Source: Paraglomus brasilianum
Lineage: Eukaryota
Direction: 5' to 3'
NCBI GenBank assembly: GCA_910592345.1
Contig: CAJVPI010000230.1
Location: forward strand, 1 to 40,783
Length of the DNA stretch: 40,783 nt
Positions 3,101-34,391 of the stretch are shown in pieces (the stretch's first letter is position 1; every line of letters starts with the position of its first letter). Below the pieces are notes generated by a model. That model did no database searches. It was not told where the DNA came from and was given only the letters and a program-made list of their open reading frames with translations. Both the position numbers and the translations under genes were made by a program.

Positions 3101-3654
3101 GGGGGAGATAAATAGGTAAAGCTAGACCGAAGATCACATGCAAAATAAAGAGATTAGATGCAGGATCTGAAGAAGTTATTTAAAATTAAATCACCGAATA
3201 ATAAACACGTAAGAACTAATACTAACCCTTAATCTGAAGGTTAACTCGTGAGTTGGTAATAATAATCATAAGATATACAGCTTAACTCACGTGACGGAAT
3301 TCTTACTATTACATACTAATACTAATAGCATACGATAATAGTAGCGATCACATCAGGAAAGGGACCCTGTTTTGGGGGGTTAGTGTCGAGATTTAAATTG
3401 CTTTGCTTCATATCGATCAAAACTAATAAACTCCGCCATAACTGGGAAAATGTTACGATCCTGGTTCTTAAGTAACTTGATATCGCTCGTAAGGCAAATT
3501 TCTCATTTTGTTGGTCTCAATTGTATGAGCTTGTTGTAAAATAAAATAAAATAAATAATGTGGCGCTAACATTTCGACCCCTGAAATCTTACTGTGACAC
3601 CTATGTTCACTTTGCCTGGTTTTGTTGCAACGTATTAAAATACCGGCCTAAAGA

Positions 3655-6331
3655 ATGAATCTGAATAGGCTTCGACATGCGGCGATTTGTCTCCTTCGAA
3701 ACAGTCGTCTTTATAAACATTACGCTATCTTCCATACGAACAAGCTTTATATTCCGTTGTCTATAAAACGACTCCTTTATACAGAAACAGCTACAGATCC
3801 GCAACATACAAAACGCATTCCCGGTTTGTGCCATGCAAACATACAGAATTCGAACGACAAATGTCATGCGTCTGCAAACGACGATGTACTAAGAGTCTTG
3901 TTTGACGATCAAAGGGCTTGGGAAAGGTTTTCAAAACACAAGTCATTATTTGACTCGCGAACTTCTTCCGGACTATTTCGGAACCAAGATCTTGCAACTC
4001 CTACTGGTTTCGAAATAGCTGCTCAGAAAGCATTGCGCAGAGCAGAACTGCTCGTCCAGAGAATAAGTAATGCCGAGACTAAAGACGAGTTGAGAAAGGT
4101 CGTAAAGAATCTAGATCGTGCGAGTGATATACTTTGCTCTGTCATCGATCTTGCTGAATTCGTGAGAACAGCACATCCGGATCAGAGTTATGTCAGAGCA
4201 GCTACTTGGGCTTACGAGTACTTATGCTCGTACATGAATACTCTCAATACCAACACTAATTTATACAAGGTAACTCCAGTTTGCTTCGTTCTCTAAATTC
4301 CCTAAATTGAAACTTTGACTTTTATCTACTCACGTAATTGACACTTATTTTCTGCTCCCATATTACAGGCTCTTAAACGCGTTCTCTCAATGCCCTCAAT
4401 AGCACATGATTTTTCGCCGGAAGAACTCCAAGTTGCTACTATTTTTCTTCGCGATTTTGAGAAATCAGGCATTCATTTGCCAGAGAAAGATCGACAACGG
4501 TTTGTTGACATATCTGATAAAATAATAGCGCTCGGTCGACAGTTTACACAGACACCTCCTGTTAGAGCTGTTAAGCAGATTGAAGTGTCGCCTGCGTCTA
4601 GCTTAGAAGGATTGAATCCTGGGTATGTAAAGGATGTTACTAGAGAGGGTGAGCAAGTGGCCGTTATATCGACTAATCAGGGGGAGGCGCAGATGGTGAT
4701 GAAGTATTGTAGGAATGAAGAGGTAAGGAAACAGATGTACTTGGCCATCAACTCGGCGAAACGAGAACAGGTTGAAGTATTGGAGGATCTTTTGAGAACT
4801 AGGGCGGAATTAGCAAAGTTAGTTGGGATGGATAGTTATGGTCATATGTTTCTCGTGGACAAGATGGCAAGGGGTCCAGGTATTTGCAATGGCATTTGTA
4901 TTATTCGAGTTATATGTGTATTATTGCTACTAACTTGTATTCATACCTAAAATAAAGAACACGTACAAACATTCCTTCACACGCTCGCTGATCAACACAA
5001 ACCGAAAGCTCTTGCAGATCTGAGACTTCTCCAGGAAGCCAAGCGAAGCCATATCGGAAGCAACGACTCTGCCCTACCAACTGTAAATGCATGGGATCGT
5101 GATTTTTATATTGATGCCGTCGTCTCCTTCTCATCCTCCCAACGATCGACACCGATATCACCCTATTTCTCTGTTGGTTCTGTGATTCAGGGTCTCTCCC
5201 GACTGTTTTCGCACTTGTTTGGAATTTCTTTTCAGCCGGCGGAAATCTTACCTGGCGAAGTGTGGCATGAGGATGTTCGTAAGCTTGATGTCATTGATGA
5301 AAAAGAGGGTAAAATTGGTATTATTTATTGTGACCTGTTTAGTCGACAGGGCAAAATTTCCAATGCTGCCCATTATACTGTACGTTGTTCACGGCGTGTT
5401 GACGACGACGATGTTGAGGGGGACATACCTTCTGGAGCCGATCATAACGAAATTGGCGAGTTGGCGGAAGGTGGTGAAGGTGTCGTTATTGGCGGAAAGC
5501 CTGGAAAGTACCAATTACCAATAATAGCTTTGATGTGTGATTTCTCAAGGACAGGAAATAGAGATGGGCCAGCATTACTTAGCTTGATTGAAGTCGAGAC
5601 ATTGTTTCATGAGATGGGTCATGCGATGCATTCAATGATTGGGAGGACGGATTTTCACAGTGTATCAGGTAAACCTTGTTATGGATATCTAATTATGTCG
5701 TCTTTCAATTATGTATTAAATTTATCGTCATTATTTTCATACAGGTACCCGATGCTCCACTGATTTTGTTGAAATACCTTCGATTCTTATGGAACACTTT
5801 GTGTATTCGCCTGAGGTGCTCAAACTGTTTGCTAAACACTACGAAACACGTGAAGACATTCCTATTGACCTAATTCGGTCTCATGCAGCAGCCAGATCTA
5901 CTTTTTCCGCAATAGAAACGCAATCTCAAATTCTTATGGCTCTTCTCGATCAAATATATCATTCGCCTCTCCTTGCTTCTACGTCTTTTGATACTACAGC
6001 TATTTTAGCTAAACTGCAAGACACAATTGGACCTTTTCCCTCAGCGCAAGGGACAGCATGGCAGATACAGTTTGGACACTTATTTGGATATGGTGCTGGA
6101 TATTATAGCTACCTGTTTGGAAGGGTGCTTGCCGGTAAAATATGGAAGGTACTATTTCAGGATAATCCTTTGAGCAGAGAAGCAGGGATGAGATTCAAGG
6201 AGGAAATATTGAAATGGGGTGGAAGTAGAGACCCATGGGTATGCGTGGGTGAAGTGCTGGAAGATGAGAGACTAATGGCTGGCGACACGCAGTCTATGGT
6301 TGTAGTTGGTGAATGGGTGGACTCATTGTAG
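3655..6331 (+). CDS. OCT1: Mitochondrial intermediate peptidase (metallopeptidase M3A)
   Basis: Exons 3655-4269, 4369-4879, 4958-5668, 5745-6331 join in frame. It has a basic N-terminal presequence, LDRASDILCSVIDLAEFVR, the zinc motif TLFHEMGHAMHSM, the third-ligand region GTRCSTDFVEIPSILME and FGHLFGYGAGYYSY. Confidence 0.96.
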
Positions 6332-6678: not shown

Positions 6679-9600
6679 ATGGCCGCACAAGGACAAGGCG
6701 AACAGTATTTTGCGACCGTAGCAGCGTTTTTGAATGGCACGCTATCACCTGACCAGAAACTCCGAAAGGAAGGTACGCATGTTATAATCCTGGTGGGAAA
6801 TACGTACTGGATAGAGTATTTGGTAGATAACCGCGCATGATAATTTTCTTATATAGCCGAGGAACAGCTATTCTCGGCAGAGAAACAACAGCCGAATTTT
6901 TCAATAGCTCTACTGAAATTAGTCGCAAACGAAAACATTGATTTGCAGATCCGCTTTGCAGCGGCTCTTTTTTTCAAAAATTATGTCAAGAGAAACTGGC
7001 TCGAGGTGACTATAATTAACAATGACGTATTGAACGGAACGGATTCCATGAAATTAATATTAGATATTCAATTGCAGGAGAGCGATCTACTTCCTGACGA
7101 TATTCGGATGACAATTAAAGCGGAGATTATCGACATCTTGGTTGCTATACCCGACAGGATAAGACCGCCACTTAGCGATGCTGTATCTCTGATCAGCGAA
7201 AGTGATTTCCCAGAGAAATGGGAAACTCTTATTCAGGTAATCAATATATCACGACGACAAACGTCATTCGTCGCTTGATACACGTTAATCGAGATACGCG
7301 CGCCCACACCCGATGATTTAATTAAACTATTTTATTGTTAACAGCAACTTGTGACGAAATTGACTGTCAAAGATTTCACACAAAATAACGCGATTTTAGA
7401 TACTGCACATGCTATATTCAAGAGGTAAAGTCAGGCCGAGTTTGATCATATGCGAGAAGATGATGGTAGCTCAATCGTTCTTAATTATCGTCTGACATTG
7501 GTAGATGGCGCCACGAATTTCGTTCAGATACGCTGTATTCAAGCATTAATTTTGTACTTAGTCAATTCTGTCAACCTTATTATGAATTACTAAAGGTATG
7601 TACAGTTTTACACGAAATTATCGTCCCTGGCAATGAGTAACCTTACTCGTGATTTTTTGCTGCATAGGCGACAGATTCTCTAATTGAAGTAAATGCCAAC
7701 AACAAACCAGTGCTTACAGTATTATTGCAAAGCTTGCTACTTGAAATGAAATTATTTTACGACCTCAATTACCAAGATTTGCCGCCTTTCTTTGAGGATA
7801 ACATGGCAGATTGTATGAATTTACTTCACAAGTATCTGACGTATACAAACCCTTTGTTCGTAAATAAGGTAAGTAATATTATTGCAGTCGTTTCAATGAT
7901 GAATTTATGATAATTGAATCGAATCGATTTCATTTTTCAGGATGATGACGAGGCCGGTCCTTTGGAGAGAATAAAGGCATCCATATGTGAAATCGTTGCC
8001 TTATATACAGCAAAATTCGAAGACGTTTTCACAATGCTTCCAACGTTTGTAGAAACGATATGGACATTGCTGACGACTACTGGAATATCGCCCAAATATG
8101 ATATTGTGGGTCATTGGAACTTGTGTTAAACGAATGCGTTGACTAGAGTATGATGATTAACTTGTTATTTTTTTTTCCAGCTTGTCAGTCAAGCTATGGT
8201 CTTTTTGACTACGGTTGTCAAGTTGGAGCGATACCGATCGCTCTTTAATCAACCAGAAACGCTGCGACAGTTTTGTGAAGCCATAGTGCTGCCAAATATG
8301 ACCTTAAGGAGTATGTAGTAGCAACTTTTAAAAGCCGTTTTTTTATGTATGTGTTAACACTTTGAGTTACGTTTGATATTGCAACTCTTTAAATGAATTG
8401 TGTTTTTAGGTGTCGATGAAGAGTTATTTGAAATGGATCCAATTGAATACATTCGAAGAGACATTGAGGGATCAGGTTATAACACAAAGATTTACGTGAA
8501 ACTGTTATGTATGAGCTGAGTTGTTTACCAGTTATACATCCCTATAGACAGTGAAACTCGTCGACGAGCGGCAACTGATTTTGTCCGTGGCTTGATGGTA
8601 CTTTATTTGGAACAGATCACTCAAATCATTAAGACCTACGTGGAACAGTACCTCAATGTTCGTAGATGCATTTATAACTGATGAAAAACGTAAAAATGCC
8701 TATTTGGCGCTTTTCTTTCCTCTTTACTTACTCATGCTTATCCCCCTCTCTAGACTTATAACCAAAATCCGGCAGTCAATTGGAAAGAGAAGGATACGGC
8801 AATATATCTATTGACATCTATTGCTGCGCAGGGATCTGTGACGAAAGTAAGGCCTGAATTTTAGTATTTGATTTCAGTACTTTTATATTCGATGCTGATG
8901 TTTTGTATTGTGATAACGTGTTTTATATGGAAGCACACTTATAATTTATTTACCAAATCTAATAGCATGGCGTTACAGCCATAAATATTTTTGTAAACGT
9001 TGTTGACTGGTATGACCAACATATCTTACCCGATCTTAAAACTCCAACTGACAGCGGTTCCGCTATTCTAAAAGTTGACGCCTTAAAGTATCTATACACC
9101 TTTCGTAATCAGGTATATATTCTTGCATGCAATTCAGTGACTTTTTTTTGATCAACACAAATTAACAGTCTCATACTTGTAGATGACTAAGGAGAAACTT
9201 CTCGAGGCCTTCCCTTATCTGATGCAACATCTGCGATCTTCTGGTTACGTTGTATATACTTATGCTGCTATTACTATAGAAAGAATTTTATTCATGAGAC
9301 GAGATAATGTTTTAGTGTAAGTTATTTGAATATAATAATGTATTGTCAAAACTCAGTGCATTAATTTTGTATAATTGATCATGTAGATTTAATCAAAATG
9401 ATATTCGACCATACACGCATGATCTTTTGATTATACTATTTGGATTGATCGAATCTGCTCCTACCCCGGCGACACTAGCAGAGAATGACTACTTAATGAA
9501 AGGTACTGCGCAAGTGCATCATCTTTGTAATATAATAGTTAAGCTAACAACTCGTGCTAAATTTGCCATACTCTTTAGCCGTGATGCGTGTGCTGTTTAC

Positions 9601-11367
9601 TAGTCGTGAAGAAATATCTCCGTATGTGGGAGATATAATTGATCATTTGAACAAAATACTAATTGTGATAAGCAAGAATCCGAGCAACCCCCAATTTAAT
9701 CATTATACATTCGAGGCTATTGGCGCTTTGGTGAGGTTGGATATTCATCGATTATTTGTTAGATTGAGCGTATTGCCCTACCTATCTTTAATATTTGCTT
9801 TTCCCCCCGCTATCAGGTTCTGTTGCGTTAATTCACAAGAGATATTAAGTCATATAGAAGGCGTACTCTTCCCCTCATTTCAAACCATTTTACAGCAAGA
9901 TGTAACGGGTATGCGGCGATTTTCGTAGGAGAATTGCAGTGTCTTTTTAGTATTAACCCTGTGATTAATCTAACATTTTGTAGAGTTTGTGCCTTATGTT
10001 TTTCAATTGCTATCTTCATTACTCGAATGTCATGTTGGACAAGAACTGCCAGAGATGTATCAAGCTATCCTGCCGGCATTGCTAAAGTCCAACTTGTGGG
10101 AAACTCAAGGTAGATAACGACTAATCAATGAAATCCAAACTCGTTCTTGTTTACAATTAATTTATCATCGAATCTAGGCAACGTGCCTGCGCTAGTACGT
10201 TTACTCCAAGCCTATCTTCATAGATCAACAACAAGTATCATTGTCAATAATCAACTTGAAGCAATCCTCGGTATCTTTCAAAAACTTCTTGCTTCCAAGT
10301 TGAACGATCAACTTGGACTTGAGCTTGTCTCTTCAGTCATTCAATATGTGCCCACGTAAGTATTCAATGATATAGTTGCTAATGTATGTTTCGATCTATA
10401 TCTTTTTAATCTATAAAAGTGCTTTATTTTCGTAATAGGGAGACTTTGAATCACTATATTGGACCTATATTTATTCTTATATTAAAGAAATTACAAAGTA
10501 CAAAGCAGGATAAGTTTCTAATTGTATTTGTTAAGTTTATATTTTGCTTTTTTGCAATCGATAAGGAGGGAGCTGGACCAGATTATATAATCCAAGTCAT
10601 TGATAGCATCCAGCCAAGGTATTCTAATTACATGATTTCAATCCTGTATGATAATGTTTGAATGTCTTGAATTTACACTGATTATACTGTATCGTAGTTT
10701 ATTCATGGGGCTCCTCAACGGGCCCATTATGCAGAATTTGCAAAAGGTCCAAGGAAGAATCGAACGCAAGATTTGTGCTGTGGGAATGACACGTCTTTTG
10801 ACCAAGTCTGAGAAAGTTATGGGCAGCGAATATGCTGAAGTCTGGTAAGAAAGAGAATTACAGCTACACGTCTAGTTACTAGAGTCGAAATATAGCTGTT
10901 GAATACTATTTGCTTTCTTCATCCAAAGCCAACAATTGACTGGATACTAATATATCATTTGGCAGGCCTACTCTTCTAGGCATGCTTGTGCGATTCTTTG
11001 AGGCACCAACGGAGGTTGAGACACATGCAGATGCCGAGGATAGTCTATACGAATTTGACCTCATCGAGGATCGAGAATTTAAGGCACAGTTTGCCAAGCT
11101 AAATTCAACGTCTCGCTTGAATAACGACCCAGTGGAGAACGTTGTCGATCCGCGAGTATTCTTAGCGCAATCGCTTGTAGAGGCAAACTCGCAATATTCT
11201 GGGACGGTAAGATACCACGTGATGGCATAAAGTAACGCCTTTTCTTAATTATTAATCAAATTTCTGCTATATAGGTATTCAGATTGATATCGGAGAAAGA
11301 GCCTCGCGAGTGTGTTGACTATATCAACGAATATATGAAACTTGCCGGATTTGGAAGTCTAATGTGA
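6679..11367 (+). CDS. CSE1: Exportin-2 / importin-alpha re-exporter Cse1 (importin-beta family), 22 exons
   Basis: Approximate exons: 6679-6772, 6857-7005, 7078-7236, 7345-7424, 7505-7595, 7668-7868, 7941-8105, 8181-8310, 8410-8475, 8548-8657, 8754-8846, 8966-9112, 9183-9316, 9387-9502, 9579-9735, 9817-9908, 9984-10109, 10178-10355, 10439-10618, 10698-10844, 10966-11206, 11275-11367. Motifs include IRFAAALFFKNYVKRNW (IBN_N), DLNYQDLPPFFEDN, ELFEMDPIEYIRRDIEGSDSETRRRAA, ENDYLMKAVMRV, ISKNPSNPQFNHYTFE and GNVPALVRLLQA. Confidence 0.95.
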
Positions 11368-11667
11368 ATATGATTTTAACGTAAAACATAACAAGTGTGC
11401 GTCGCGTGATGAGAGTATCTGCTAGCTCCATTAGATATTGTTTCATTTATCTAGATTACCATAGAATGGTATACTGAAATGAGTTGTATATGCACGGAAT
11501 TTTATATTAAAATGTTGTCAATTCTCAATGTATATCAACTTTGTAATGATGTCCATATTAGGAAATAGACCCGCACTTTGATAAGAGATTTTGTTAAAAT
11601 TCGTTTTCTCCCATTCCCTTGTCCATCAACCTGACCTTTTTCGCACACGAATTACTTGTGAACAATT

Positions 11668-13030
11668 ATGCAATCGGCTGAAGATTATATGGATCCTGAC
11701 GATTTTCTAGCTGAGGAAGCAGTTAGTTTGGTTTTTCATTCATGAGGAGGGTTTTATCTAGAATAAGTGTTTTATATGAAAATTATTTGATAGGTTATTG
11801 GGGTTAAGGGACTTCCATTTGATTCACAAGCGCTGATTAATATGGGCGTCAGCAACCGAGTACGTATGAAAGACAGACGTAATGAGGTTATGTGGCATAA
11901 GCACGCCGTTAATGTCTCGTTGTTTACAGGTTAGAGAAGTGGGTAATAATTATGAAGGCGAAGAACGAGTGGAGAGACGTACGCGTAGTAGCAGGAGACA
12001 ATTTGCGGATGATCACGATAACGATGACGATGACGTCACGAGGGAATCAATACAAGAGATACCTTACTGGGTTGCAATCAAGCTAGTCCAAAAGTAAGCG
12101 GCAGATCGTTATAAAAAATGATTATGTACAACCCAATTCTAGTCTGTATAAATAGAAGAGCAAGATTGCTTTATCTATTCATAACGTGAAGGAGGCCAAT
12201 TTTCTACTCGGAAAGATATCAACTAGTGGATATACAACCGTCATTTTAATGCCCCCCTAATATTCTTTGTAGAGGACTTGGAGAGTTGCAGATGCCAAAG
12301 ATATTTGGCCGACCGGTACGCAACGCATTGAAGGCAGACCCGATTCATGTGAATTTAGTTGAACAAGATCCACGATTCTTTGCATTTGGTGGCAAATTCC
12401 TTGAAGCGTATCCTTTGCATATTTCATGTGTCAATTCCTTACTTCAAAATTAATTATGATTCTTATAAAATTCTAGTGTAGAGGACCCTGAACTGGCTGA
12501 GGTTCTTGATAAGGTCAGTATCACATGATAATACCCATTTATCTGGTGGACTGGTGGATTAAATTATAACTAATATAGTTAGTGAATTGAGCCTCCAACT
12601 TTTTTAGCAAAGCAGTAGTGAATGCGATAGGCTACGTCATTATACTTATCTGCCCTTTATCCCGATTGGCGATTTACAGAGTTACGTACAGCGTACGCGT
12701 GCCACACTTGATCACTTGGAGTATGGAGCGGCAGGTAAGGAGACGGTCTTTGTTTCGAAGATGGACGAGACGGAAAGACAAGGTATGAGCCATTGAAGAG
12801 GAAAAGTCAAATGATATTTTAAATTACCATACATATATGGATACACATTCACATATGTATATATATGTGTGTATACGTATGGTATGCAGGTATATATATA
12901 TATATGTCATTACATTGTACGTTGTGATTGTCATTAGATGCTGACGTATTGTTGTTTCGCATTAGTGTACTTGGCGGGTGTGGAGACAGTCAGGGCATAC
13001 AAGACATGGGCATACAGTCGGAGGGAATAG
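11668..13030 (+). CDS. PSF3: DNA replication complex GINS subunit Psf3, 7 exons
   Basis: Exons 11668-11721, 11794-11859, 11930-12093, 12273-12407, 12477-12513, 12680-12782, 12966-13030. The spliced protein reads MQSAEDYMDPDDFLAEE...EIPYWVAIKL...MPKIFGRPVRNALKADPIHVNL...RFFAFGGKF...FVSKMDETERQVYLAGVETVRAYKTW, which matches the Psf3 motifs DxDDxLA, ELPxW, ALKADP and LDExER. Confidence 0.9.
12408..12476 (+). other. Candidate U12-type (minor spliceosome) GT-AG intron in PSF3
   Basis: The donor reads GTATCCTTT, the U12 consensus. TTCCTTAC at 12435-12442 and TTCTTATA near 12460 resemble U12 branch sites. Removing the intron restores the Psf3 frame. Confidence 0.7.
12835..12906. repeat. TA/TG-rich low-complexity microsatellite in the last PSF3 intron
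   Basis: Runs such as catatgtatatatatgtgtgtatacgtat and gtatatatatatatatgt. Confidence 0.6.
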
Positions 13031-13843
13031 GCGGGTGCAAGGGGAAAAGATGATTGGGTCAGAGGATGAGTGTGGGAACAAGAAAACAACGGGAGCAGGT
13101 TTTCATCTTGATATTTCAGTTGACGTGTGGAACCCCCATATGTAGATAGAAGCATTAATATGTAGTTGTAGTTGTATATCTCTTGAATGTTCAGTTTCCC
13201 TCTCAATTAAACCTGTTTGTTTCTATGACGGCGCTTCATTTTCTTCGTTTTCAGTTAGTTCGATTGCAATTTCGTTGTTTAAAATTTGCAAGATTTTATG
13301 CAACGCATACTTGGCTGTGCATGCTGAATGATGTGCTCGGCATAAGTAAATGCAATGCCTAAATAGTACAACTTGTAGTAGTAATTCAGATCGTCCATAT
13401 ATTTGGAAGTATGATGTTCGCTACTGTTTGGTTAGTACGTAGCAAGTAATTTGGGTTAGCGGTATGCATCCTATGCATAAGAATGTGAACGGATTTCAGT
13501 GCCGCAAAAGCAATTCAATTGTATCAGAACATTGAGTTACTTTATGCGACACTGAGGTAGTAGTACAGTAAGAACAAACGCCTCTTATTTCATTTATAAC
13601 GCCACCTAAATCATTTGATCTTTCTACTCTTCTCAGTTTCATGTCTCATACTTGTATCTCTTTTTCCACCTGTCTGAAGTCAGGTGTATGATGTCATATC
13701 GGCTGGGATAAGGGGAGACATTCATATGAGATCATATGTATAGCTATGATTTGCGTGGGATAAAACTGTCAGGGAAACGACCCTTTGATAAAACAGTATT
13801 ACATAGTATAGTTTGTATTATAAATTATAAAATGCTATCGATA

Positions 13844-14219: not shown

Positions 14220-14670
14220 GCTCTACATACTCTCGCTTCCTCATCTTCTCATCTTGCATATAGTTTATACAATACTACATTCATTCTTATGTACAGAGAA
14301 CAATGTTCTACGCATATCCATAGTCTGCCATTATTAGATTACTTTTTTTCCTCCGCTTGTGTTTCGCAAATACGCTTATCTTGCAGCATCCTAAAACTTA
14401 CACTAAAATAACTACTAAGCCTCCGGTTGTACAGTGGCGTAATAACATATTTTTGTAACAAATTCATCCTCCTTCCCATCACCACATAAATACCCCAACC
14501 TTAAGGTCTGAAAAATCTCACGACCAGTCACTTACCCCACAAAAACACAAAAAAGAAGAAGTCGGTTTTGAAGATTTTCATAGAACAAACGAATACCATC
14601 ACGAGAATTGAAAGGTCTATATAATCCTAACGAAGAAACACTCAACGATTAACATACCGATAACTCAACA

Positions 14671-16278
14671 ATGGCACCAGCACCAGCAACAAAAAACATC
14701 CCCATCGTATTAGAAGCGGTAAACCAAGTAACAAACTGTGTCAGCCAACTTCCATACAATGAAGGATTCGATGAACGCGACGTTGTCGAAATCTCAGTGA
14801 CCACCGCTCCCAAGGCCAGAATAGAAATTGCAACAGTCTCTGCAATCATTCAGTTTTCATGCAATCTTGTTCTCTCGAAAGCTGTATACGATGTCCGAAT
14901 AGAATTTCCTCGTATGAAACTACCATTTGCGTGGACCAATAGATCCATCCGCGACGTACTCTACGCTCCTAACGACAACCCAATTGCCCTCGAAGTGGTG
15001 AGCGATGACTGCCGTCTCACGGTCTTTAAGAATAACGATGACGCTTGCAGAGACGAATGGTATGATGCAATCAAGCATTGGCACACTAATTTGCCGCCGA
15101 GATTTCACTTGTTGTTGAACGAACTTGTGGAGAATGTATCCGCCCATGCGCAGCTTCCAGAAGACAGGTTCTGTTTCACTGTTGGATTACATTTTTACAA
15201 AAAGAAGGTAATAATGAATTTCATTAGGGGTCTTGTTACCTGCCATTGCATGTGAATACTCAGCATTGGTATATTCGACCTGCATTAATCCCGTACATTT
15301 CAAACGAATAGCATGTCGATGATCGGCTGATACTAACACTTTTCATTTCCTTTTCTCTTTCCCGCCCACCTCCCTTTCCCCCCTTTTTTCCCCACCATCG
15401 ATTAGCTCTGCTATTGTGTTGCCGATTGCGGTGTCGGTCTACATGGGTCGCTCCAACAAGGAATCGTAGAGGACGCTAAAGCCGCTGCCCGTCGTGCTTG
15501 TGCTCTCTATTTGACACGCCCTCAAGTTACCTCCAAGGGTATCGAGAGAGGACATCAAGGTGTTGGCCTCTTTATCACAAGCGAATTATCTCAAATGAAC
15601 AAAGGCTACGTCCAAATACTCTCCGGTTTACAAGAATACGAGCAAAGAGGTGAGCATAACTATAATCATATACTTTTGATAGTATAAAAAAAGTTCATAT
15701 GACGATCAACCAGCAATGCTACTAAATAGGCTGGATTTTCATGTGTAACTTTGTTCTTTATCACCAATATCACACCCCCCCCCCGACTGTGCCTATATTA
15801 ATCTCTCTTTTTGTATTTTTGTATAATAATAGATACCACTGTTGTACGTGTCAGGGGTATTGCTGAATGGAAAGGCACTATGGTCCATGGTGCGATCAAC
15901 TTGGACCAAGAGTTTAATTATCGGCGAGCCATGAAATTATTTTCCAACCCAAATGACCTCAACAACGACCGATTTCTCGTTGCTTCGGTGCATCTCAACG
16001 TATATGGCCAGAAGAACCTTCGCACTCGTGAATTATGTGAAGAAATCATCCGCGATCTGGAAGCAGCTGTTGAAAGATCAACCAAAATAATCCTCGACTT
16101 TACAGATATCGAAGAAATCTCACAGGCTTTCTCTGGTTTTCTTCGCCGATTTGTTACGAATCACTCTAAAGTACGAATGATGATTATGATTCCACCCAAT
16201 GCTAATGAAGACTTACGAGAGGATCTACAAGACTTGAGCGATCTAGCAGCACAGAACAAATCAGATGACGAGGAATAA
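14671..16278 (+). CDS. Bacterial-type GHKL/HATPase_c (anti-sigma-factor-like kinase) fused to a C-terminal STAS-like (DUF4325-like) domain; 3 exons, 408 aa
   Basis: Exons 14671-15207, 15406-15649, 15833-16278 total 1227 nt in frame. Bergerat-fold boxes: N box LLNELVENVSAHA, G1 VADCGVG, lid TRPQVTSKG, G2 GHQGVGLF, G3 WKGT. The C-terminal GQKNLRTRELCEEII...IILDFTDIEEISQAF matches the STAS-like DUF4325 pattern (xLxxR...LDFxxVxxxxxxF). Confidence 0.82.
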
Positions 16279-16569
16279 TGTTTTTAATTATCTATATTTG
16301 ATTATCATATACTATTCTTATCATTTTTTCTTTTTGTATATTCATATTATTCCTATTAGACTCATTGATTAGAAAATAACAGTTTAATATTCGAATATTT
16401 TATATAGAACGGTTGATTACTTTATAGAGTAGCAATCCAAAAAAATTTTCCTTTCATCTCACTACTTTCGCATTGTAAATGCCATAATCGAATAAAAACC
16501 CTTATATATTAAATAAATATTATTACAACTAAATTGTAATAGAAACCAAGCATAGACAACGTCAAATCA

Positions 16570-17037
16570 TTAAGTTTCAATACTTCGAGTCTGTATACCA
16601 GCAATACCCATTCCACGTATCAATCCCACAATATAGATCTCTGTTGTACTATAAAGTCTCCCCTTCACTTTATACACTTGCACATTATCACTTCCAAACA
16701 ACTCTTCCATAGTTTGTTCCAGTTTCTTATATTTTTCTTGTTGTCCATATGGATCGTGGTCAGATATCGTTAAAGGAGCAAAGAATTGATCCTTGTCTAC
16801 ACGTTCTGTCTTTATTTCTTCCTGAGCATGTGAAGAATCAAGATTCGTTGTTAAATCAGCGAATAGCTCTGCTGACTCGGGTAGGCGTTCGAGTTCCTTG
16901 TTCTCAAAGAACACAAATTCAAGTGGTTCGTCTCCCTCAGAGACGTAATACAAATCAGACGACGCTGCAACAAGTTTATCCTTAACCTGCAGCAAATCGA
17001 TCGGGCGTGCGCTAGAGCTATCGGACGGGTTGCCCAT
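16570..17037 (-). CDS. nuiA: Nuclease A inhibitor-like protein (NuiA family), intronless, 155 aa
   Basis: Aligns by eye along its whole length with Anabaena NuiA: LVAASSDLYYVSEGDEPLEFV vs LKQASDGLLFMSESEYPFEVF; VDKDQFF vs VDIDSFF; KYKKL vs KFQKL; VQVYKV vs PQVYRL; EIYIVG...GIAGIQTRSIET* vs DVYVIG...NLAGISTKVVET*. Confidence 0.88.
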   Translation of the reverse strand: MGNPSDSSSARPIDLLQVKDKLVAASSDLYYVSEGDEPLEFVFFENKELERLPESAELFADLTTNLDSSHAQEEIKTERVDKDQFFAPLTISDHDPYGQQEKYKKLEQTMEELFGSDNVQVYKVKGRLYSTTEIYIVGLIRGMGIAGIQTRSIET

Positions 17038-20795: not shown

Positions 20796-23057
20796 ATGAG
20801 TTTAGTCCTCAGGAAATACCCATTAATTGAAAGAGAGTTGACACCAGATAAACCTCGATAAGCCCGAAGAACGGCTTCCTATTGTCACAAGCGGTAAAGC
20901 AGTTCACGAATTACTAATTATGTTGGTCATCAAAATGACAGGCATTTTGGATTCCTTTCTACGAGGAAACAATTAAATATTTAATCTAAACAATTGTTTA
21001 TAAAGAAATTATTGCTTAATGTAATGATGTTTCATGTGACTCAAATACAGTATAACGGATTTCGATCAAATGACGGAATTGTTAACCAATTTTTATTCAG
21101 TGGTGAAAATTATTTTACGATTCTTAGGTTTATAGAGAAAACCAAAGACGTAGAGCGTGCATAGCCGTAATGCATTACGCTGACAATGGTTGCTAACTTT
21201 ATACTTGTCCAACAAACAAAAGCTTTTGTCGATATTATGCCATCGAATTCTTTGACTTGAACGATGTCATCTGTTTTAGGGGCTCGTACAATAATAGACG
21301 GCACCTCTTTAGCGGCTGAATATTATGAACTTAATGCGGAAATCACTGACATAAGTCAAGCCGAATTGACTGCGCTATTTGCAAACAAATGTTTCATGGC
21401 GGTAGCATTGAAGAAACGATGATAGTGATGCTGTTACTTGGAAGCGAGGAAATATGTACACCAACTCATATGAGAGAAGTTGCTAGAATATACTCTCTTT
21501 CAACACGCAAGCACAACAATGATGCCAGTCAGTTTAGAAGATTTTCCACATGGCTTAGACATCGCTACAAGGATTCACCAAGCATGAAGATAACTATTAT
21601 CTGGTTGCTCGTAAGCGCTTTTATCATTATTATTTTCTATATGGATTCTGCTCTGCATGTGGAATACTCCGATGTGGACATAAAAAATTATCCAATGGAT
21701 AGACTAGCAACAATAAACGACTCGACGAGTTTATTAAGAAATCTCAAATACAAACGAACTCAGCAAACGATTAGAGTGATTGTATTGATAATAAGGGATA
21801 TCGTGTATACTTAAATAATAGTCTATCTATTACTACTTATCTTGGAGTAAAATGGATTCCACTTGACATAACAGATGAGACGGACGAGTCATATTACTAT
21901 TCGTCATGAATATATCGTGTTTATCGATTGTTTAGATAATTTTTGATTTTGTGTATAATTTTTATAGTTATGTGATGAGCATCAAGATATTCTTACCACA
22001 GATGTTTGGGTGACCATTGGATTTACATATGATGCAAGTGAATAGAAGTATTATATAAAAGAACGAGATAAGATTGGAGTATGTCTGGCATGTACGCGTC
22101 GATTAGAACCTAAGATAAATATATTCTGTTATCGTTGTAAAGCACCAAGGTCTCCCGATTGGACTACGGGCAATAAATCTTTGGATTCGTTTATTATGGA
22201 ATCGTGGCGTAATGCGAAGAATAAACATAATGCCTATATACAATGGATAGAGTACCCTCTATTGACAAACGTACGAGATATGACACCATTACACACATAT
22301 GGCAGAATTTTTAGAACCGATAACAAATGAATGGACAAGAGTAATGCTCAGACAGATAGAGCTCGGTTATTTGATTTTTATCAGGTAAATTATTTCAACT
22401 CAAATATAAATAGAATTACTTGCGTCCGCGCACGTTGATTGATTTTTTATAACGACTGTATTAATAGTTAACCAAGGAATATCCGGAGATATTAACACCA
22501 GAAAATATTTGGATCATTGGTATCACTCAAAGCCATCTACTCGAAAATATTGTTTGGTATTCTACTACGAAGCGCGGATTAATGGAGATGTTAAGTATAT
22601 GCAGCATGCGGATTTTGCTGAAATCAATGAGATTGGATCTGGTGGTTATGGAACAGTCTATACTGCCAGATATAAAGGCAAATCAAAACTTATTGTCCTC
22701 AAACGCTTTAAAAATTTTGATGAGACACCGGAATTGTTTATTTCCGAAGTAAGCAATCTTTGGTATTAAATTTAATCTAACTCTGTATTTATTTTTTTTT
22801 TATTTAATAGTTCAGACATCACACCAAGTGCGCGCGTTATGGTTTTTCTTGAAATTTATGGAATCATGCAAGATCCAGAAACAAGGGGGTACATGATTGT
22901 TATGCAATATGCTAATAACGGCAACATTTTGTCTTACTTGGATCAAAATATCAACAAATTGATGTGGAAGATGAAACTAGAGTGTTTGAAAGATATTGCA
23001 CAGCATCTGTATTTTATTCACTATGCGGGATTTGTGCATTGCGATCTTCATGGTGGA
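20796..23057 (+). pseudogene. Degraded, 3'-truncated tyrosine-kinase-like protein kinase of the family expanded in Glomeromycotina
   Basis: Two family-typical N-terminal motifs, CGHKKLSNG*TSNNKRLDEFIKKSQ (TAG 21700-21702 where Trp is expected) and WTTGNKSLDSFIMESW...YIQWIEY. Kinase core EIGSGGYGTVY, IVLKRFK, IYGIMQDPET...MQYANNG and FVHCDLHGG. Several in-frame stops (e.g. 22043-22045) and no DFG/APE region. The 5' boundary is approximate. Confidence 0.8.
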
Positions 23058-24051
23058 GTGTCTGTGAAGACTAATGTTATGGCATATATTCCTCCCCTAA
23101 TTTCTGCGTAACACCGATGGTAGCACAGGAGAATTCGATTATCGTGTCGCAATCCTCGAACTTCAGCACTTTCGAATAAGTAGATTTTCCATATGTTATT
23201 CCCCGTTTTCTGCAACAGAAGGTTTACCTCCCTAAGTGATTTACATCTTGTAGCAACTACTGATGACAATTTTCGAACGCACAATATTATTATCCTAGTT
23301 GCGTAAAGAAATCTTGTTTTTCTCATTTTACAATATCTTTGAAACTAACAGAAGGATTTGATGATATCATTCTTTTCTTTAGTGAGAGAGAATAATAGTA
23401 ATAAATATCGACAGTTAGTGCTTTTGAGGCATTAAAAAGATTGGAATGTTTTTAATTTAACAAAATAAAAAAAAAGCCGAAAGTTATTTAAAAGCTGTTA
23501 AACTTTATACGTAACTTGGCCAAAATTATATAAGAATTATTATTATTTTCAATAGCTGTTATTATTATAATACATACAGTAATAGTAAGAGATGTAAATT
23601 GTTAAAATTTCTTTCCTATGGAAAATTTTAGTTGTTTGGTTAAACTTTTAAATATATCCTGGGGAAAAGCCCAACTTTGAATTGACGAAGAGAGAATTAA
23701 TAACAGTTATTATATTTATTATTCATGATAATAATGATAGCTTTGGGACTAGGTACAATCCTTTGTTTAGTATTTATATATTCAAGAGCAGCGCACAAAA
23801 AAAATTGTATCAAGTAGCGAATGCAAAGCCTTTGTTATGCAATTGTTCCGAAATCGGCCAGTTCGAAATAAGCAATTTATTTCGATAGATTGTTTATGAC
23901 GTAGACGATTGTCGTTAAACTCGCAAAATTGTAAACAATTGAATGTAGGTCACGCAAAAGGATGAGAATTTTTTGATGTATGACAAGCCTCCGCCAACAA
24001 GTAGTTTATATTAATATATTAATATGTATACATTATTCTGTAAACGATGCC

Positions 24052-27000
24052 ATGAGCTTGATCAATCGAAGAACATATTTTCTTCTCTTGTGTCTACTTG
24101 TTTTTGTCAATTTTGCTGGATTCTTATGGGAACAACAGCGGAATAGACGACATGAGACTAATGTGTTTGGGAATTCTGTGCGAGAAGTGAAACTGGTAAA
24201 AAGGTCTGTTTCGCTAGAGGGATCTGACCCAGCTCTTGCAGAAACCAACTCGATTGCTTTCCAGATGTCGGGGGAAGGGGACACTATTGAGCAGACAGAG
24301 GTAATTAGGTTTCTCCTCGATAGGTTGCCTTTGCAGTTCAGTGTAATTGCAGCAGACGCGTCTCGGGAAATCGATGCTCGTTGTGTGTTTCGCGATGCTG
24401 ACGTTGCTGTCCAGATAGTACGTTGAACTCTGCCGTGCACACGCGTTCAAAGAAAATATTTACTGTGTGCTGCTTACGGATACCTTTTCACTGATTAGTT
24501 AATATTGGGGCCACCCGGATCTCAATAAACGCAACGATCCTGAGATAAACCGTCTCTATGCTGGGAAACGACTTCCTTTTGATAATGCTCTGTGCTTCTT
24601 TCAGATGGTAATATTTATGTCTCTTTCTTTTGCCTTACTGTCTAGTGCGATGATATTTATAGTCATCCAGATGTCTGCGCATACGTAAGAGAAAATTGCC
24701 GAGACTATTCTTCCGGACTGATCAATTATCTCGAAATTTACTTTTGCGGCATGAAGAAAATCAGGCTTTTCGCTCTTGCAATGCTTGTACGTCATTATCG
24801 GAATATATCATACCTATGCATAGTCTTTTATCAAATTGAATGAACTATTAATTGGTTCCGTTTTCACTTTGAAAAGTTTCTTTGGCTACTTTTCCTCTTT
24901 GGATTCGTAGGTGTAGCTGCCTCGGACTTTTTCTGTCCCAATTTAAACACTATTGCTTCGAGTTTGAATCTATCCGAAAGTTTGGTAAATACAGAAGCAT
25001 CACGGCGTTGAAATATAATACGATCGAATCTAATAGCATCGTTCTATATATTAACTATTCTCGCTCTTTTGTCCATTGATAAGGCTGGTGTGACGTTTTT
25101 GGCTTTTGGAAATGGATCACCCGACGTATTTAGCACGTTTAGTGCAATGTCGAACAATTCAGGCTCTTTAGCTATTGGAGAATTAATAGGCGCTGCCGCC
25201 TTTATATCATCTGTGGTTGCAGGGTCTATGGCAGTAGTAAGACCGTTTCGCGTCACAAGAATACCATTCATTAGAGACGTTTTGTTTTTTATGGGGGCCT
25301 TGTTATTTATTCTAATAATTATTTCGGACGGTTATATTCGCATGTGGGAAAGCATTCTGTTAATTTTGTATTATTTTACCTATGTCAGTGTTGTTGTTAT
25401 TGGAAGTTGGCGAGTAAGTCAAAATAAAAGACATCGATGGCTAGAACAAAGGGCTCGAGATGAGTACGCTCCCCCGTCGGAGGACAGTATAATTGAAGAT
25501 AGTGGAGTGCTGAATGATGATGATGACTACGACCAAGATTCTTATGGATATAACTCGTTCGGCGAGACGGATTTTCTGTTACAAGGCCATGAGCGAGATG
25601 AAGAAGCCGGTCATGCTACAACTCCCATCTCTATGACTGCGCTGAACAGAAATTATAACAATTATTTTTCGCCATCGTCTTTCATTACAATGAGCGACAT
25701 TGTAGATCAAGCAGGGAGCTTCCATCACCACCATGGCGCAAAACAAAGATCATTACATCACGGAATGAGACCTTCACTCTTTGGAGCCATTGAGGTAAAG
25801 AAAAAATCATTTTTAGATAGTATTGCTTCCTCCTTTTTTCTTTCCGATCGAAGCTGGATGTCCATCATTGCTGATGAATTCTATTGAACTTACAACTAAT
25901 TTAGTTCCGCGATCTTGTGAAATCACTCAAGTTGAATAGCAGTGCAAGAGCGCTCGGCGTATTTGGCCGTAGTTATTCATCAGAATTTAATCACCCTGGA
26001 ATACAAAGGCCCAGAGTAGAGCGCAGTAATACAACGCCGCTTCGTAGCTTATATGAAAATCCTCGGGCTGGTCTTGATACCATATATGATGCGTTTGGTC
26101 TTTCAACGCCCGGTAATAGTAACACTGTTCGACGTGATAATATCCTAGGACTGTCTGGGGTACCTAGTCTATCGTCCGGTTTGTCTCCTTACATTGACAT
26201 TGATCAAAGTTCGAGGTCAGCAGAAACAAATTTGCAGCCAGATGACACACAATCGGATTCATCGAATGCATTACAAGTACCACGTTTAAATGTCGTTCCC
26301 CCGACCCCATCAAGGAGCCCATTGCTATCACCATTGGCGTTTTCCTATTCGCCATCTTCAATGGCAGCTGACTCTGAATTTCCGGGTGATGGTTTACCAC
26401 AATCCAATTCCTACCTTCAATCGCCACCATCGCCTGTCACACCGCTTCCTTCGCCAGTGCTATCAGCTGACGTATCTGCAGATGTGGAGAACCCAGTTAT
26501 TCAAAAGTTTTACCTGAATTCAATATGGGAGAAATTTCAGCCAACTTTATTCCCTTCCCTCACTGGATTCAGATCAAAATCATACTTTGCCAAGTTCATT
26601 GCATTGATTGCATGCCCAGCCAATTTACTTCTTGTTCTTACACTACCAGTTGTCGAAGCTGATAAGCTATCCAGCGATGATGAAAAACGAGTGGACGATT
26701 CTCCAACTATTTTTAATTCACATTTGGACCCACCGCGAATTACACTCGATGATGAAGACATTGATATGGATTTGTCGAAGGGCGCAGATGGAGAAAACGG
26801 GTGGAGTAGATGGTTGACCACTTTTCAACTTGTATCTGCTCCTGTATTTGTTGTTAGCGTTCTTGTTGGTAAGAAGCGTTTGCTTTAGAAGAATGAGCCA
26901 TATATATAATAACCGTCTAATTGAGATTCGTATGTTTTTAGTGACTAATGGTTTCGACTGCAAGGCCATCCTTTATGCTTTTGCTGTCGGCTTCATTCTT

Positions 27001-31422: not shown

Positions 31423-34353
31423 CTACGCCGCTTCTTGCTGCGTAAGCTTCTTAGTGGAGGATCCCTTCATGACCATTAATGCTTTGCAGACATATACAAC
31501 CTTTCTAATTTTCTTTACAGTCTTGGCAACCTTCTTCAAACGTTCTGCCTCGACCTTACGAGCTTGTAACTTGTTTCTCCTTGTTGGGGTTGGGAAAACC
31601 CTAGCAGTAAACGCAAATGACCAGCGCTTGAATAATTGCACTTTGACAAAATCAAGTACAAAGAAGTAGACAAGCGAGAAACTGATGATCGAAAGACCCC
31701 ATCCCCAACCAATGGCGGGAGTAAGCACACCGTAGATAGAGATAAACATGGCAAAGACTTGAGTACCCATAACAGCCACGAAGAAGATGGGTGATGGAAG
31801 ATTCTCCCAGAAGTAACCGGAAAGACGTGTAGAAAAGATAACAAAGTGCGGACATGAAGAAATATGAAGATACATGATTGTCTCGAGTCTCTTGTCGTCC
31901 CCCTTCTCGGGAATGTTGAATACATCACGTGCAATGAAGTAATGACCAAACGATGCTGCCGTGAGGAGAGCGCCGAGCAATATTGATAGAGTTATCAGTT
32001 GACCAAGACGCCATTTGTCTGGTTGTTTCGATATCTTTGCGTTGTCAACAGCAATGACAAGGGTTGCAGCGTCATTAAGAATGGTAATCAAAATCAAAAG
32101 AATAGCTTCCATGGTCCAATCACGGGCGAGAGTAATGGTAAAGAAGAACATCAAGAAATGCACTGTGGAGGTGATACGATACAAGGCATATGATCGCATA
32201 CGTTGGAAAATTGCTCTTGAAGTTGTAATACCATCAACGATTGTAGAAAGACCAGGTGCAAGCAATACGATATCAGCAGCGGACCTTGCAGCATCCGTAC
32301 ATCCGTGAACGGCAATACCAACATTAGCCTTCTTCAAAGCTGGGGCATCATTCACACCATCACCAGTCATACCGACAAGCAATCCTTTCTTTTGCAATAA
32401 TTCTACTACTCGGTATTTGTGTTCAGGAATGACTTGAGCAAATCCATCGGCTCTCTCACAATGTTCTGTTACTTCTTCTTCAGACTTTGTGGCATCTACC
32501 AAGTGGTTGGCATCGAGAATAACACGTTGCATTCCTAGACGGTGAGCGACTTCTTTGGCAATGATCAATTGATCACCTGTAATCATTTTAACTTCAACAC
32601 CGTAGCCATTGCATCGACGAATGGTTTCGGCAGAGTCTGGACGTGGAGGATCGAGAAGGGAGATCATACCGACTAATTCGTAATTCTCAAGATTACCAGG
32701 TTTCGTGCGGGCCACACCGAGAGCGCGAAGACCACGACGTGCAAGTGCATTAACTGCTTTGACAGCCTCGTCATCACCGCCGACCAAGTTGATTATCACC
32801 TGCGGAGCACCCTTTGCTACTTTGAATACAGCTTTCGTGTCGACATTGAGAATAGTGGCAGAAGTCATCTTGGTGGTTGGATTAAATGGAACAAAGGCAG
32901 TCTGTTTGTATCCGGGGATTTCATGCTTGTTGGGACGATTCTTGAGCAAATCGAGACTGTTCTCGGCAGCAGTTCTTACGGCAGACTCAATTGGGTCATT
33001 TGCACCAGGCTCAGCTGACAAGTACGAGTATAATAGAATGTCTTCTTCGCTGAAACCAGGAGATAAATAAGGTTTGTCGAAAGTGAGTTCGTTGAGCGTT
33101 AGGGTACCAGTCTTGTCTGAACATAATACAGAGATGGATGCCATTTCTTCTACAGCCGTAAGACGTTTGACGATAACCTTCTTTGCAGCAAGTTGCTTAG
33201 CACCCACAGCCATGGTGACGGACAATACAGTTGGAAGACCGACGGGAATAGCAGCAATGGTGAGCACGAGAACGTTTCCGAGGACATTGAGTACCTTTCC
33301 ATCATCAGTGTGACGGAACTTGATCATTTGGTACACAAAAATGATAGCGACCAACACACTCGTAATCAAGATCAAGAAATTTCCAATTTGGTTGACAATT
33401 TTCTGGAAATGACCCTGTTCGACAGTAATCGAAATCAGATTTGCAGCTCTGCCAATAAAAGTGTCACTGCCAGTCTTTATGACGACAGCCAACATTTGGC
33501 CCTGCTTGACAATGGACGAGGCGTAAACGGTATCACCCTTCTTCTTCTCGACTGGTAACGATTCGCCGGTCAATGCAGATTGATCGATGGAGAGAGCACC
33601 TTCAGTTTCGCCACCAGTGACTGAAATACCCAATAAACGAGCATCGGCGGGAATGATATCACCAAGACGAAGACCAATAACATCACCGGGTACCAGTTCT
33701 GCGACATCGAGATCGATAAAGTGACCGTCACGCCAGACTTTTGCCTTGAGTGCAAGCGTGTTTTTGAGGGCGTCGAGAGCAGACTCGGCACGAGCTTCTT
33801 CGATGAAACCGATAAAAGCGTTGGTAAAGAGAAGGGCTAGAATGACACCAAAGTCGAGCTAAGAGGGAAAAAAAAAAAGATTAGAGAAATAACGAGGATT
33901 AGTTTAATAATACCAAATCGGCAAGTATACTAATGATTCGCCAGATCGTTGACAAATAAAATTTACCCAATGTTTGAGAACAATCGCAAAGATGCAAGCC
34001 AGTTCGATCAAGTAAGCAATAGCACCGGTGAAATAACCCAAAAACTTTAGTAGATAATTAGTCTTCACTTCAGCAATTTCATTGCGACCAAATCTTTCCA
34101 TTCGCTTTGCGGCTTCCTCGGTAGTGAGACCTTTTGTTGGATCTGTGTGAAGCAGCTCTTCGAGCTCTGGTGGGATGTCCTCGGCTACGTGGATATGTTC
34201 ATGTTCTTCCACTTGGAGATTGCCAACTTTCTTTTCCTGTTTCTCATCGATGGTTTCTGATTTTTCATTAGTGACACTGACGTGTTCTGTAGTGACGGTG
34301 ACTATTTCCTCTGTTATTTCGTCAGAGGAAACGACCTTCTTTTCTTCAGACAT
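31423..34353 (-). CDS. PMA1: Plasma-membrane H+-ATPase (P3A P-type ATPase), 2 coding exons, 940 aa
   Basis: Exons 34353-33967 and 33858-31423. Motifs DQSALTGESLP, IPVGLP, the phosphorylation site CSDKTGTLT, KGAPQ, DPPR, MITGD, GMTGDGVNDAPALKKA and SRAIFQRMRSYALYRI. Confidence 0.97.
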
Positions 34354-34391
34354 TAGGTTTGTTTTTGTTGTTTTTTTGTGTTATAAAAATT

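What the first reader, a model, noticed from the sequence alone, without database searches (positions are those of the whole stretch)
14671..16278. Intron-containing eukaryotic gene for a self-contained anti-sigma-like kinase plus STAS-like substrate (possible one-protein partner switch)
Seen: splicing out two GT-AG introns gives a 408-aa protein with complete N/G1/G2/G3 boxes. The G1-G2 exon (15406-15649) is absent from the ORF track. No HisKA H-box or receiver domain is evident, so it does not look like a fungal hybrid histidine kinase. The C-terminal LDFTDIEEISQAF keeps a Ser in the STAS phospho-loop region. Known: SpoIIAB/RsbW-type kinases phosphorylate a Ser in STAS proteins, and the related CapK/CapS pair regulates bacterial immune operons. 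Inference: the introns show true nuclear integration rather than contamination. A fungus has no sigma factor, so the output must be something else. The N-terminal ~140 aa may be a second, degenerate STAS or sensor domain.
Basis: partly seen in the sequence, partly recalled or inferred. Interest (0 to 1): 0.8.

Follow-up and report, generated by a model that had tools for sequence, protein, structure and literature searches.

The report
Bacterial switch protein domesticated by mycorrhizal fungi
This is a real, spliced fungal gene, found across all five orders of arbuscular mycorrhizal fungi and probably taken from bacteria long ago; it encodes a stress-switch-type kinase fused to its usual target domain, but the target's phosphate-accepting serine is gone, so it likely works as an ATP-driven switch rather than by phosphorylating itself.

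Summary
The gene is real. It has three exons and 408 aa, both GT-AG junctions are seen in RNA contigs (6 of 7 and 7 of 7 runs), and it is identical to a Paraglomus brasilianum protein. Orthologues (62-87% identical) occur in all five Glomeromycete orders; no named hit came from another fungal group. The fold is STAS-like + SpoIIAB-type GHKL + DUF4325 STAS (pLDDT 92).

(1) The fusion is bacterial: 1,663 prokaryotic-type proteins match the same architecture. (2) An R. irregularis 'ATPase, DUF4325', very probably the orthologue, is already a table row in a 2018 HGT paper (97.9th expression percentile), where it was called recent and left unexplained. (3) The conserved Ser357 is the helix N-cap. 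The acceptor positions of VapS (+1) and CapS (+2) hold Gln/Lys and Ala in 25 of 25 fungal proteins, while the ATP-site residues are invariant.

Best reading: an ancient, domesticated CapK/VapK-like nucleotide switch with a built-in pseudo-substrate. Self-phosphorylation is less likely. Input and output are unknown; ssDNA sensing is not excluded. The scan had not noted this gene before, only related bacterial cassettes.

The parts
14671..15207 (+). Exon 1 (aa 1-179): N-terminal STAS-like domain, N-box helix, Lys hairpin
15208..15405 (+). Intron 1, GT..AG, 198 nt, phase 0; apparently at the same site in Glomeraceae-like contigs (ORFs run into an intron after the same KK/KR)
   Evidence: RNA joint in 6 of 7 RNA-type runs; read-through ORFs P0027, P0028, P0029, P0030, P0307
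15406..15649 (+). Exon 2 (aa 180-260): G1 box, ATP lid, G2 box
15650..15832 (+). Intron 2, GT..AG, 183 nt, phase 1
   Evidence: RNA joint in 7 of 7 RNA-type runs
15833..16278 (+). Exon 3 (aa 261-408 + stop): end of GHKL (G3), linker, C-terminal STAS
14671..15090 (+). N-terminal domain aa 1-140, likely a degenerate STAS as in CapK/VapK; least conserved part (22 of 140 positions invariant)
   Evidence: alternating strand/helix pattern in the model; 13 of 20 fungal domains score above the best of 360 scored shuffles with a bacterial N-domain profile, but hhalign probability only 4.7%
15091..15921 (+). GHKL (Bergerat) ATP-binding domain aa 141-290, split by both introns; 75 of 150 positions invariant
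   Evidence: Pfam HATPase_c E 3e-4, below the curated cut-off; Foldseek rank 2 SpoIIAB 1l0o_A, prob 1.00, TMt 0.62, E 3.6e-3; profile A3 best PDB hit SpoIIAB E 7e-5
15121..15147 (+). N-box E151...N155...H159
   Evidence: 20 of 20 invariant; N155 and H159 invariant in the 117-sequence fungal+bacterial alignment
15199..15207 (+). Lys hairpin K177-K179; K178 20/20, K/R179 20/20; by motif position equivalent to the ssDNA-contacting lysines modelled for CapK (K237/K239) and VapK (K180/K181)
   Evidence: paper text and Appendix, compared by eye
15964..16257 (+). C-terminal STAS (DUF4325-like), aa ~305-402
   Evidence: Pfam DUF4325 in 17 of 19 members, best E 5.7e-5; Foldseek of the isolated domain: RsbS, SpoIIAA, RsfB, RsbV among top hits, prob 0.96-0.99 but all E > 0.001
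16120..16131 (+). STAS loop S357-Q358-A359-F360: Ser at the helix N-cap, Gln/Lys and Ala at the two known acceptor positions
   Evidence: helix starts at 358 in the model; 25 of 25 fungal proteins S-[QK]-A-F; VapS and CapS registers
14531..14670 (+). 5' untranslated region (at least)
   Evidence: RNA contig of X17 begins at 14531; transcript-like contig L001 aligns from 14531
16279..16499 (+). 3' untranslated region (at least)
   Evidence: spliced RNA contig of X16 runs to 16499

Best explanation
This spliced, expressed gene, shared by all five orders of arbuscular mycorrhizal fungi, encodes a single-chain STAS-like/GHKL/STAS protein likely acquired from bacteria by their common ancestor, and it likely acts as an ATP-driven conformational switch whose own C-terminal STAS is a non-phosphorylatable pseudo-substrate. 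Shown: gene structure, splicing, distribution, an invariant ATP site, Gln/Lys and Ala at the two STAS acceptor positions, and bacterial proteins of the same architecture. Predicted: one compact three-domain fold (pTM 0.91). Inferred: the STAS docks over the nucleotide site, as SpoIIAA does on SpoIIAB and CapS is modelled to do on CapK, but cannot be released by phosphorylation. ATP/ADP state and a ligand in the groove between the N-terminal domain and the GHKL domain (ssDNA in CapK) would then open or close it and expose a surface to an unknown fungal partner. Input and output are untested.
For: Splicing. Distribution: named hits are Paraglomus, Geosiphon, Ambispora, Gigaspora, Diversispora, Acaulospora, Cetraspora, Dentiscutata, Racocetra, Rhizophagus, Glomus, Funneliformis and Entrophospora; orders checked for five species. 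In 1.84 billion representatives only 2 proteins reach E<=1e-30, both of the fungal type; apart from two AMF fragments, the other 146 of the 150 listed score E>=2e-12 and look prokaryotic. Same architecture in bacteria: hhalign A1 vs A4 prob 99.9 over aa 137-361; 1,663 proteins at E<=1e-20 among 7,995 scored. ATP site invariant 20/20; dN/dS 0.26 against a related transcript contig. Acceptor register: VapS S48 = N-cap+1, CapS S54 and V. cholerae S58 = N-cap+2 (counted by eye from Appendix Table S2; VapS alignment). The fungal +1 is Q 23 / K 2 and +2 is A in 25 of 25, whereas +2 is Ser in 140 of 141 bacterial three-domain proteins aligned (the 125-member group was picked by this motif, and a few tandem or unclassified proteins were left out). 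A bacterial wHTH-GHKL-STAS family has G-Q-A-F, with no hydroxyl at all, in 9 of 9, and the fungal STAS scores best against that family even with the loop masked (median 9.3 bits vs -2.2 and -0.3): a precedent for a hydroxyl-free fused STAS. In bacteria the three-domain gene has no conserved neighbour in 78 loci, i.e. it is self-contained.
Against: No coordinates were available, so docking of the STAS on the ATP site and the residue nearest the gamma-phosphate were not measured. The acceptor register already varies (+1 in VapS, +2 in CapS), and S357 is invariant (25/25), so a further shift cannot be excluded. All Pfam and Foldseek domain hits are individually weak (below curated cut-offs; E>0.001). 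The trees do not identify a donor: fungal branch length 1.05, sister support 0.66. Ciach et al. dropped this transfer for low coverage of the homologous region. The catalytic Glu is kept, which fits a trans-acting kinase equally well.
Confidence: 0.45

Rival explanations
1. One-protein partner switch: the GHKL domain phosphorylates S357 of its own STAS (register shifted to the N-cap), as Rv1364c does on Ser600.
For: S357 invariant in 25 of 25; catalytic residues intact; the acceptor register differs between VapS and CapS; Rv1364c precedent (passage read); 125 bacterial relatives keep Ser at both acceptor positions.
Against: S357 directly precedes helix 358-370 in the model, and the same column is Ser/Thr in bacterial relatives that also keep the real acceptor Ser, so an N-cap role explains its conservation. 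No fused phosphatase domain to reset it.
Confidence: 0.2
2. A CapK-like Ser/Thr kinase that acts in trans on a fungal protein; the fused STAS is only an autoinhibitory lid removed by the signal.
For: E151, N155, H159, D186 and the G-boxes are invariant; the Lys hairpin matching CapK K237/K239 is kept; CapK and VapK act in trans.
Against: These kinases recognise STAS folds, and no separate STAS substrate lies in the window among the 22 ORFs scanned. Expression of the probable orthologue at the 97.9th percentile is high for a signalling kinase (inference).
Confidence: 0.2
3. Neofunctionalised abundant ATP-binding protein (chaperone-like, scaffold or nucleotide store) with no switching role left.
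For: Very high expression of the probable orthologue; long branch from bacteria; the aromatic residue needed by CapK (W68) and VapK (F54) has no counterpart in the two corresponding loops (by eye).
Against: All three domains and the STAS kinase-facing loops (L323-E327, E355, S357, A359, F360) are invariant, as expected if the kinase-STAS interface still matters.
Confidence: 0.13
4. Bacterial or endobacterial contamination, or a mis-called gene.
For: Bacterial-type domains; AMF assemblies often carry bacterial DNA (passage).
Against: Two spliceosomal introns removed in RNA from seven studies; eukaryotic neighbours such as an importin-beta and a synaptobrevin-like ORF; orthologues in 13 AMF genera; no relative confirmed among 48 pattern matches in 185,579 prokaryotic species genomes.
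Confidence: 0.01

Closest known systems
R. irregularis ESA12330.1 (JGI 184991), 'ATPase, DUF4325', Li et al. 2018, PMC5982333
   Same: Same fungal group, same domain pair, bacterial homologues and none in other fungi; FPKM 166.6, 97.9th percentile. Very probably the orthologue; R. irregularis P0009 is 67% identical to this protein.
   Different: The accession was not among those listed for the P0009 or P0025 clusters (at most 4 shown), so identity is inferred. The paper calls it a recent transfer and gives no mechanism; here it is shown in all five orders.
CapK + CapS and VapK + VapS (Chambers et al., EMBO J 2026, PMC13373217)
   Same: STAS-GHKL kinase architecture, N-box Asn, Lys hairpin; the C-terminal STAS of the bacterial three-domain profile hits VapS (9z7o) at E 1.2e-7.
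   Different: Single chain; no HTH/wHTH or VapC; the acceptor Ser is replaced; no aromatic at the W68/F54 loops; eukaryotic host.
Bacterial STAS-GHKL-DUF4325 three-domain proteins (uncharacterised, annotated 'DUF4325 domain-containing')
   Same: Identical domain order and length (about 410-440 aa); stand-alone genes; hhalign prob 99.9. The module also matches the N-terminal ~400 positions of PADLOC DrmA model PDLC02567 (P0104 E 3e-36; fungal E 2e-5).
   Different: Only 16-20% identity; they keep Ser at the CapS acceptor position (140 of 141).
Bacterial/phage wHTH-GHKL-DUF4325 proteins (about 345 aa, G-Q-A-F loop)
   Same: Fused STAS with the same Q-A-F and no acceptor; best match of the fungal STAS.
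   Different: N-terminal wHTH instead of a STAS-like domain; their kinase domain scores worst against the fungal profile (median 6.5 bits vs 29-48, selection bias possible).
SpoIIAB/SpoIIAA, RsbW/RsbV and M. tuberculosis Rv1364c
   Same: Bergerat kinase fold and STAS fold; Rv1364c is a known single chain with kinase + STAS that phosphorylates its own Ser600.
   Different: No sigma factor in the host, no phosphatase domain, an extra N-terminal STAS-like domain, no acceptor Ser.

Membership tests
SpoIIAB/RsbW-type GHKL kinases | Bergerat fold with N, G1, G2 boxes and catalytic Glu | tested here: met
SpoIIAB/RsbW-type GHKL kinases | No HisKA/H-box or receiver domain | tested here: met
   Pfam scan of 19 members
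SpoIIAB/RsbW-type GHKL kinases | Phosphorylates a STAS Ser; binds a sigma factor | not testable with these tools
   biochemical; fungal nuclei have no sigma factor (established knowledge)
STAS phospho-substrates (SpoIIAA, VapS, CapS) | STAS fold | tested here: met
   DUF4325 17 of 19; Foldseek prob 0.96-0.99, E>0.001, on a pLDDT-66 single-sequence model
   Q/K and A in 25 of 25; registers
CapK/VapK | N-terminal STAS fused to GHKL | tested here: inconclusive
   secondary-structure pattern and profile scores above shuffles for 13 of 20, hhalign 4.7%
CapK/VapK | ssDNA-stacking aromatic (CapK W68 / VapK F54) | tested here: not met
   the corresponding loops hold N-Q-V and P-K/R-A-R; conserved F86 and W/F88 lie on the next loop (by eye, no coordinates)
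CapK/VapK | Lys hairpin after the N-box strand | tested here: met
   K178 20/20, K/R179 20/20
CapK/VapK | Separate downstream CapS (STAS-wHTH) or VapS+VapC gene | tested here: not met
   STAS is fused; the next gene is a convergent NuiA-like ORF
CapK/VapK | Activation by ssDNA | not testable with these tools
   needs an in vitro assay
Bacterial STAS-GHKL-DUF4325 single-chain family | Same three-domain order in one chain | tested here: met
Fungal hybrid histidine kinases | HisKA + HATPase_c + receiver | tested here: not met

The most novel reading that the evidence does not exclude
The ancestor of all arbuscular mycorrhizal fungi captured a bacterial DNA-damage/anti-phage sensor module (CapK/VapK-like, also found at the front of some DISARM DrmA helicases), disabled its self-phosphorylation site, and kept it as a core, highly expressed, lineage-defining sensor of ssDNA or foreign nucleic acid in its multinucleate, endobacteria-bearing hyphae: a bacterial partner-switch repurposed in a eukaryote.
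Probability: 0.2. Interest if true: 0.85.

Novelty: new variant of a known kind. Interest (0 to 1): 0.55.

Why it matters
A bacterial signalling module retained in every order of these fungi, under purifying selection, strongly expressed in the model species and not found in other fungi, is a candidate lineage-defining gene of the most widespread plant symbionts. It was written off as a recent 'ATPase' transfer. The CapK/VapS link and the natural Ser-to-Ala change give concrete assays that need no fungal genetics. It also points to a large, unstudied family of stand-alone bacterial kinase-STAS fusions.

Full report
1. Observation. Joining 14671-15207, 15406-15649 and 15833-16278 gives 1227 nt, 408 aa and one stop; both introns are GT..AG. 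Exon 1 finds a 408-aa protein at 100% identity annotated in Paraglomus brasilianum on a contig of the window's length, an arbuscular mycorrhizal fungus (AMF) of the Paraglomerales. Public RNA contigs skip exactly intron 1 in 6 of 7 RNA-type runs and intron 2 in 7 of 7; the DNA run shows neither. The gene is real, nuclear and transcribed.

2. Distribution. The fungal profile A1 found 33 proteins among 7,998 scored: 32 of the fungal type (named ones all AMF, plus one plant-transcriptome entry taken as contamination) and one bacterial-type protein. Named genera cover Paraglomerales, Archaeosporales, Diversisporales, Glomerales and Entrophosporales, the five orders listed in NCBI taxonomy (five species checked, the other genera placed from recall). 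An index-free profile search of 1.84 billion representatives gave 330 hits at E<=0.001, of which 150 were listed: two fungal-type proteins at E<=1e-30, two AMF fragments, and the rest at E>=2e-12. ORFs from Glomeraceae-like contigs run off into an intron at the same KK/KR site, so intron 1 likely predates the split of the orders. dN/dS against transcript contig L001 is 0.26 (GHKL 0.18); the comparison with L002 is saturated.

3. Anatomy. AlphaFold2 with a 117-sequence alignment gives pLDDT 92.1 and pTM 0.91. The centre (aa 141-290) is a Bergerat domain: SpoIIAB is rank 2 in Foldseek (prob 1.00, TMt 0.62, E 3.6e-3; no hit reached 0.001) and the best PDB sequence hit of profile A3 (E 7e-5). E151, N155, H159, D186, G188, G190, G231, G233, G275 and T276 are invariant in 20 of 20 fungal proteins. 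The C-terminal domain hits DUF4325 in 17 of 19 members, weakly, and folded alone resembles RsbS, SpoIIAA, RsfB and RsbV (model pLDDT 66). The N-terminal 140 aa are probably a degenerate STAS: 13 of 20 score above all 360 scored shuffles with a bacterial profile, but profile-profile probability is only 4.7%.

4. The fusion is bacterial. I picked 22 three-domain proteins of 369-444 aa from the hits (A4); 21 of 22 carry DUF4325, and A4 aligns to the fungal profile at prob 99.9 over kinase, linker and STAS. A4 finds 1,663 proteins at E<=1e-20 among 7,995 scored, from Bacteroidota, Nostoc, Firmicutes and others. In 78 genome loci of one subfamily, no real neighbour family recurs in more than 5 loci (a 7-locus cluster was an antisense ORF inside the gene itself): a stand-alone gene. 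Eight of 32 low-GC loci have a defence-like neighbour, without control, and the module matches the first ~400 positions of a DISARM DrmA model. Trees make the fungal proteins one clade (24 of 24, support 0.998) on a long branch without a resolved donor.

5. The serine. The CapK paper (PMC13373217; read: abstract, sections 7 and 11-14, find passages, Appendix) shows that CapK, activated by ssDNA, phosphorylates CapS S54, and proposes the same for VapK on VapS S48. Counting in Appendix Table S2, CapS S54 and V. cholerae S58 lie two residues after the N-cap, directly before Phe; VapS S48 lies one after. In the fungal protein helix 358-370 follows S357, so S357 is the N-cap; +1 is Gln (23) or Lys (2) and +2 is Ala in 25 of 25. 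Bacterial three-domain proteins have Ser at +2 in 140 of 141 (groups were partly chosen by this motif, and a few tandem or unclassified proteins were left out). The fungal STAS is thus a natural equivalent of the CapS S54A mutant. A second bacterial family (wHTH-GHKL-DUF4325) has G-Q-A-F in 9 of 9, and the fungal STAS scores best against it even with the loop masked, while the kinase domain scores better against STAS-GHKL proteins. This suggests an unsampled or mosaic donor.

6. Mechanism. Shown: intact ATP site, lost acceptor, conserved interface loops. Inferred (0.45): the STAS stays docked as a pseudo-substrate, and the protein cycles as an ATP/ADP- and ligand-gated switch acting on an unknown partner. 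Rivals: self-phosphorylation on S357 (0.2; precedent Rv1364c Ser600, passage in PMC10950880), a trans-acting kinase with an autoinhibitory lid (0.2), or an abundant ATP-binding protein with a new role (0.13). On input: the Lys hairpin of CapK/VapK is kept (K178 20/20, K/R179 20/20), but the stacking aromatic is not found at either known loop (by eye), so ssDNA sensing is open.

7. Prior knowledge. Li et al. 2018 (PMC5982333; read: abstract, sections 15 and 19, find passages, two supplement rows) list R. irregularis ESA12330.1 'ATPase, DUF4325' as a recent bacterial transfer absent from other fungi, at FPKM 166.6, 97.9th percentile. I could not match that accession by look-up, so orthology is inferred. 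The Ciach et al. preprint (10.1101/2021.12.02.471044; passages) discarded it for low coverage; passages of the journal version (PMC11291939) held no STAS, HATPase or anti-sigma term, and its supplements were not examined. Searches for DUF4325 (3 papers), six gene identifiers (2 papers), STAS/anti-sigma with Glomeromycota and HGT with histidine kinase-like ATPase found no description of the architecture, its pan-AMF spread or its mechanism; subscription papers are not covered. PMC5499597, PMC8256260 and PMC13712970 were seen as passages only. Earlier scan notes held nothing on this sequence or genome; three notes concern related bacterial cassettes.

8. Verdict. A real and ancient domestication of a bacterial kinase-STAS module, already flagged once as HGT but not understood. 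It is a new variant of a known kind, with a testable twist: the substrate domain has lost its acceptor. Interest 0.55.

Noticed in passing
window 16570-17037 (-): Intronless NuiA-like gene (nuclease A inhibitor, PF07924 E 2.7e-14; NuiA_2 E 1.2e-10), 155 aa, on record in the protein collection, convergent with the finding and partly covered by RNA contigs. A second bacterial-type, nucleic-acid-related gene next door; synteny and origin not tested.
   Followed up: partly
PADLOC model PDLC02567: A 1750-position DISARM DrmA model carries the STAS-GHKL-STAS module in its first ~400 positions (bacterial P0104 E 3.4e-36), suggesting a fusion of this switch to a defence helicase; one paper search showed no description of it.
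   Followed up: partly
L004-L081: A large uncharacterised bacterial family of stand-alone STAS-GHKL-DUF4325 genes with an S-S-S-F loop (1,663 hits; no conserved neighbour): better candidates than the fungal gene for a true self-phosphorylating one-protein switch.
   Followed up: partly
P0035 (Diversispora eburnea, 538 aa): Gene model joining a methyltransferase, a degraded piece of this kinase and an AIG1 GTPase; likely a decayed duplicate inside a chimeric annotation.
   Followed up: no
P0054, P0094: Bacterial proteins with two tandem STAS-GHKL units in one chain.
   Followed up: no
P0003, P0018, P0026: Gigasporaceae models lack about 8 aa at the start of exon 3, matching a second AG at window 15853-15854; probably mis-called acceptors, and a sign that intron 2 sits at the same place.
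   Followed up: no
window 3652-6331, 6844-7278, 21350-21814, 22443-23111, 25012-25887 (+); 31423-34380 (-): Ordinary eukaryotic neighbours by Pfam: peptidase M3, importin-beta N-terminus, synaptobrevin-like (weak), protein kinase fragments in a high-copy region, Na/Ca exchanger, P-type ATPase.
   Followed up: no
window 10355-13195: A further spliced gene upstream with at least five GT..AG joints in run X5; not identified.
   Followed up: no
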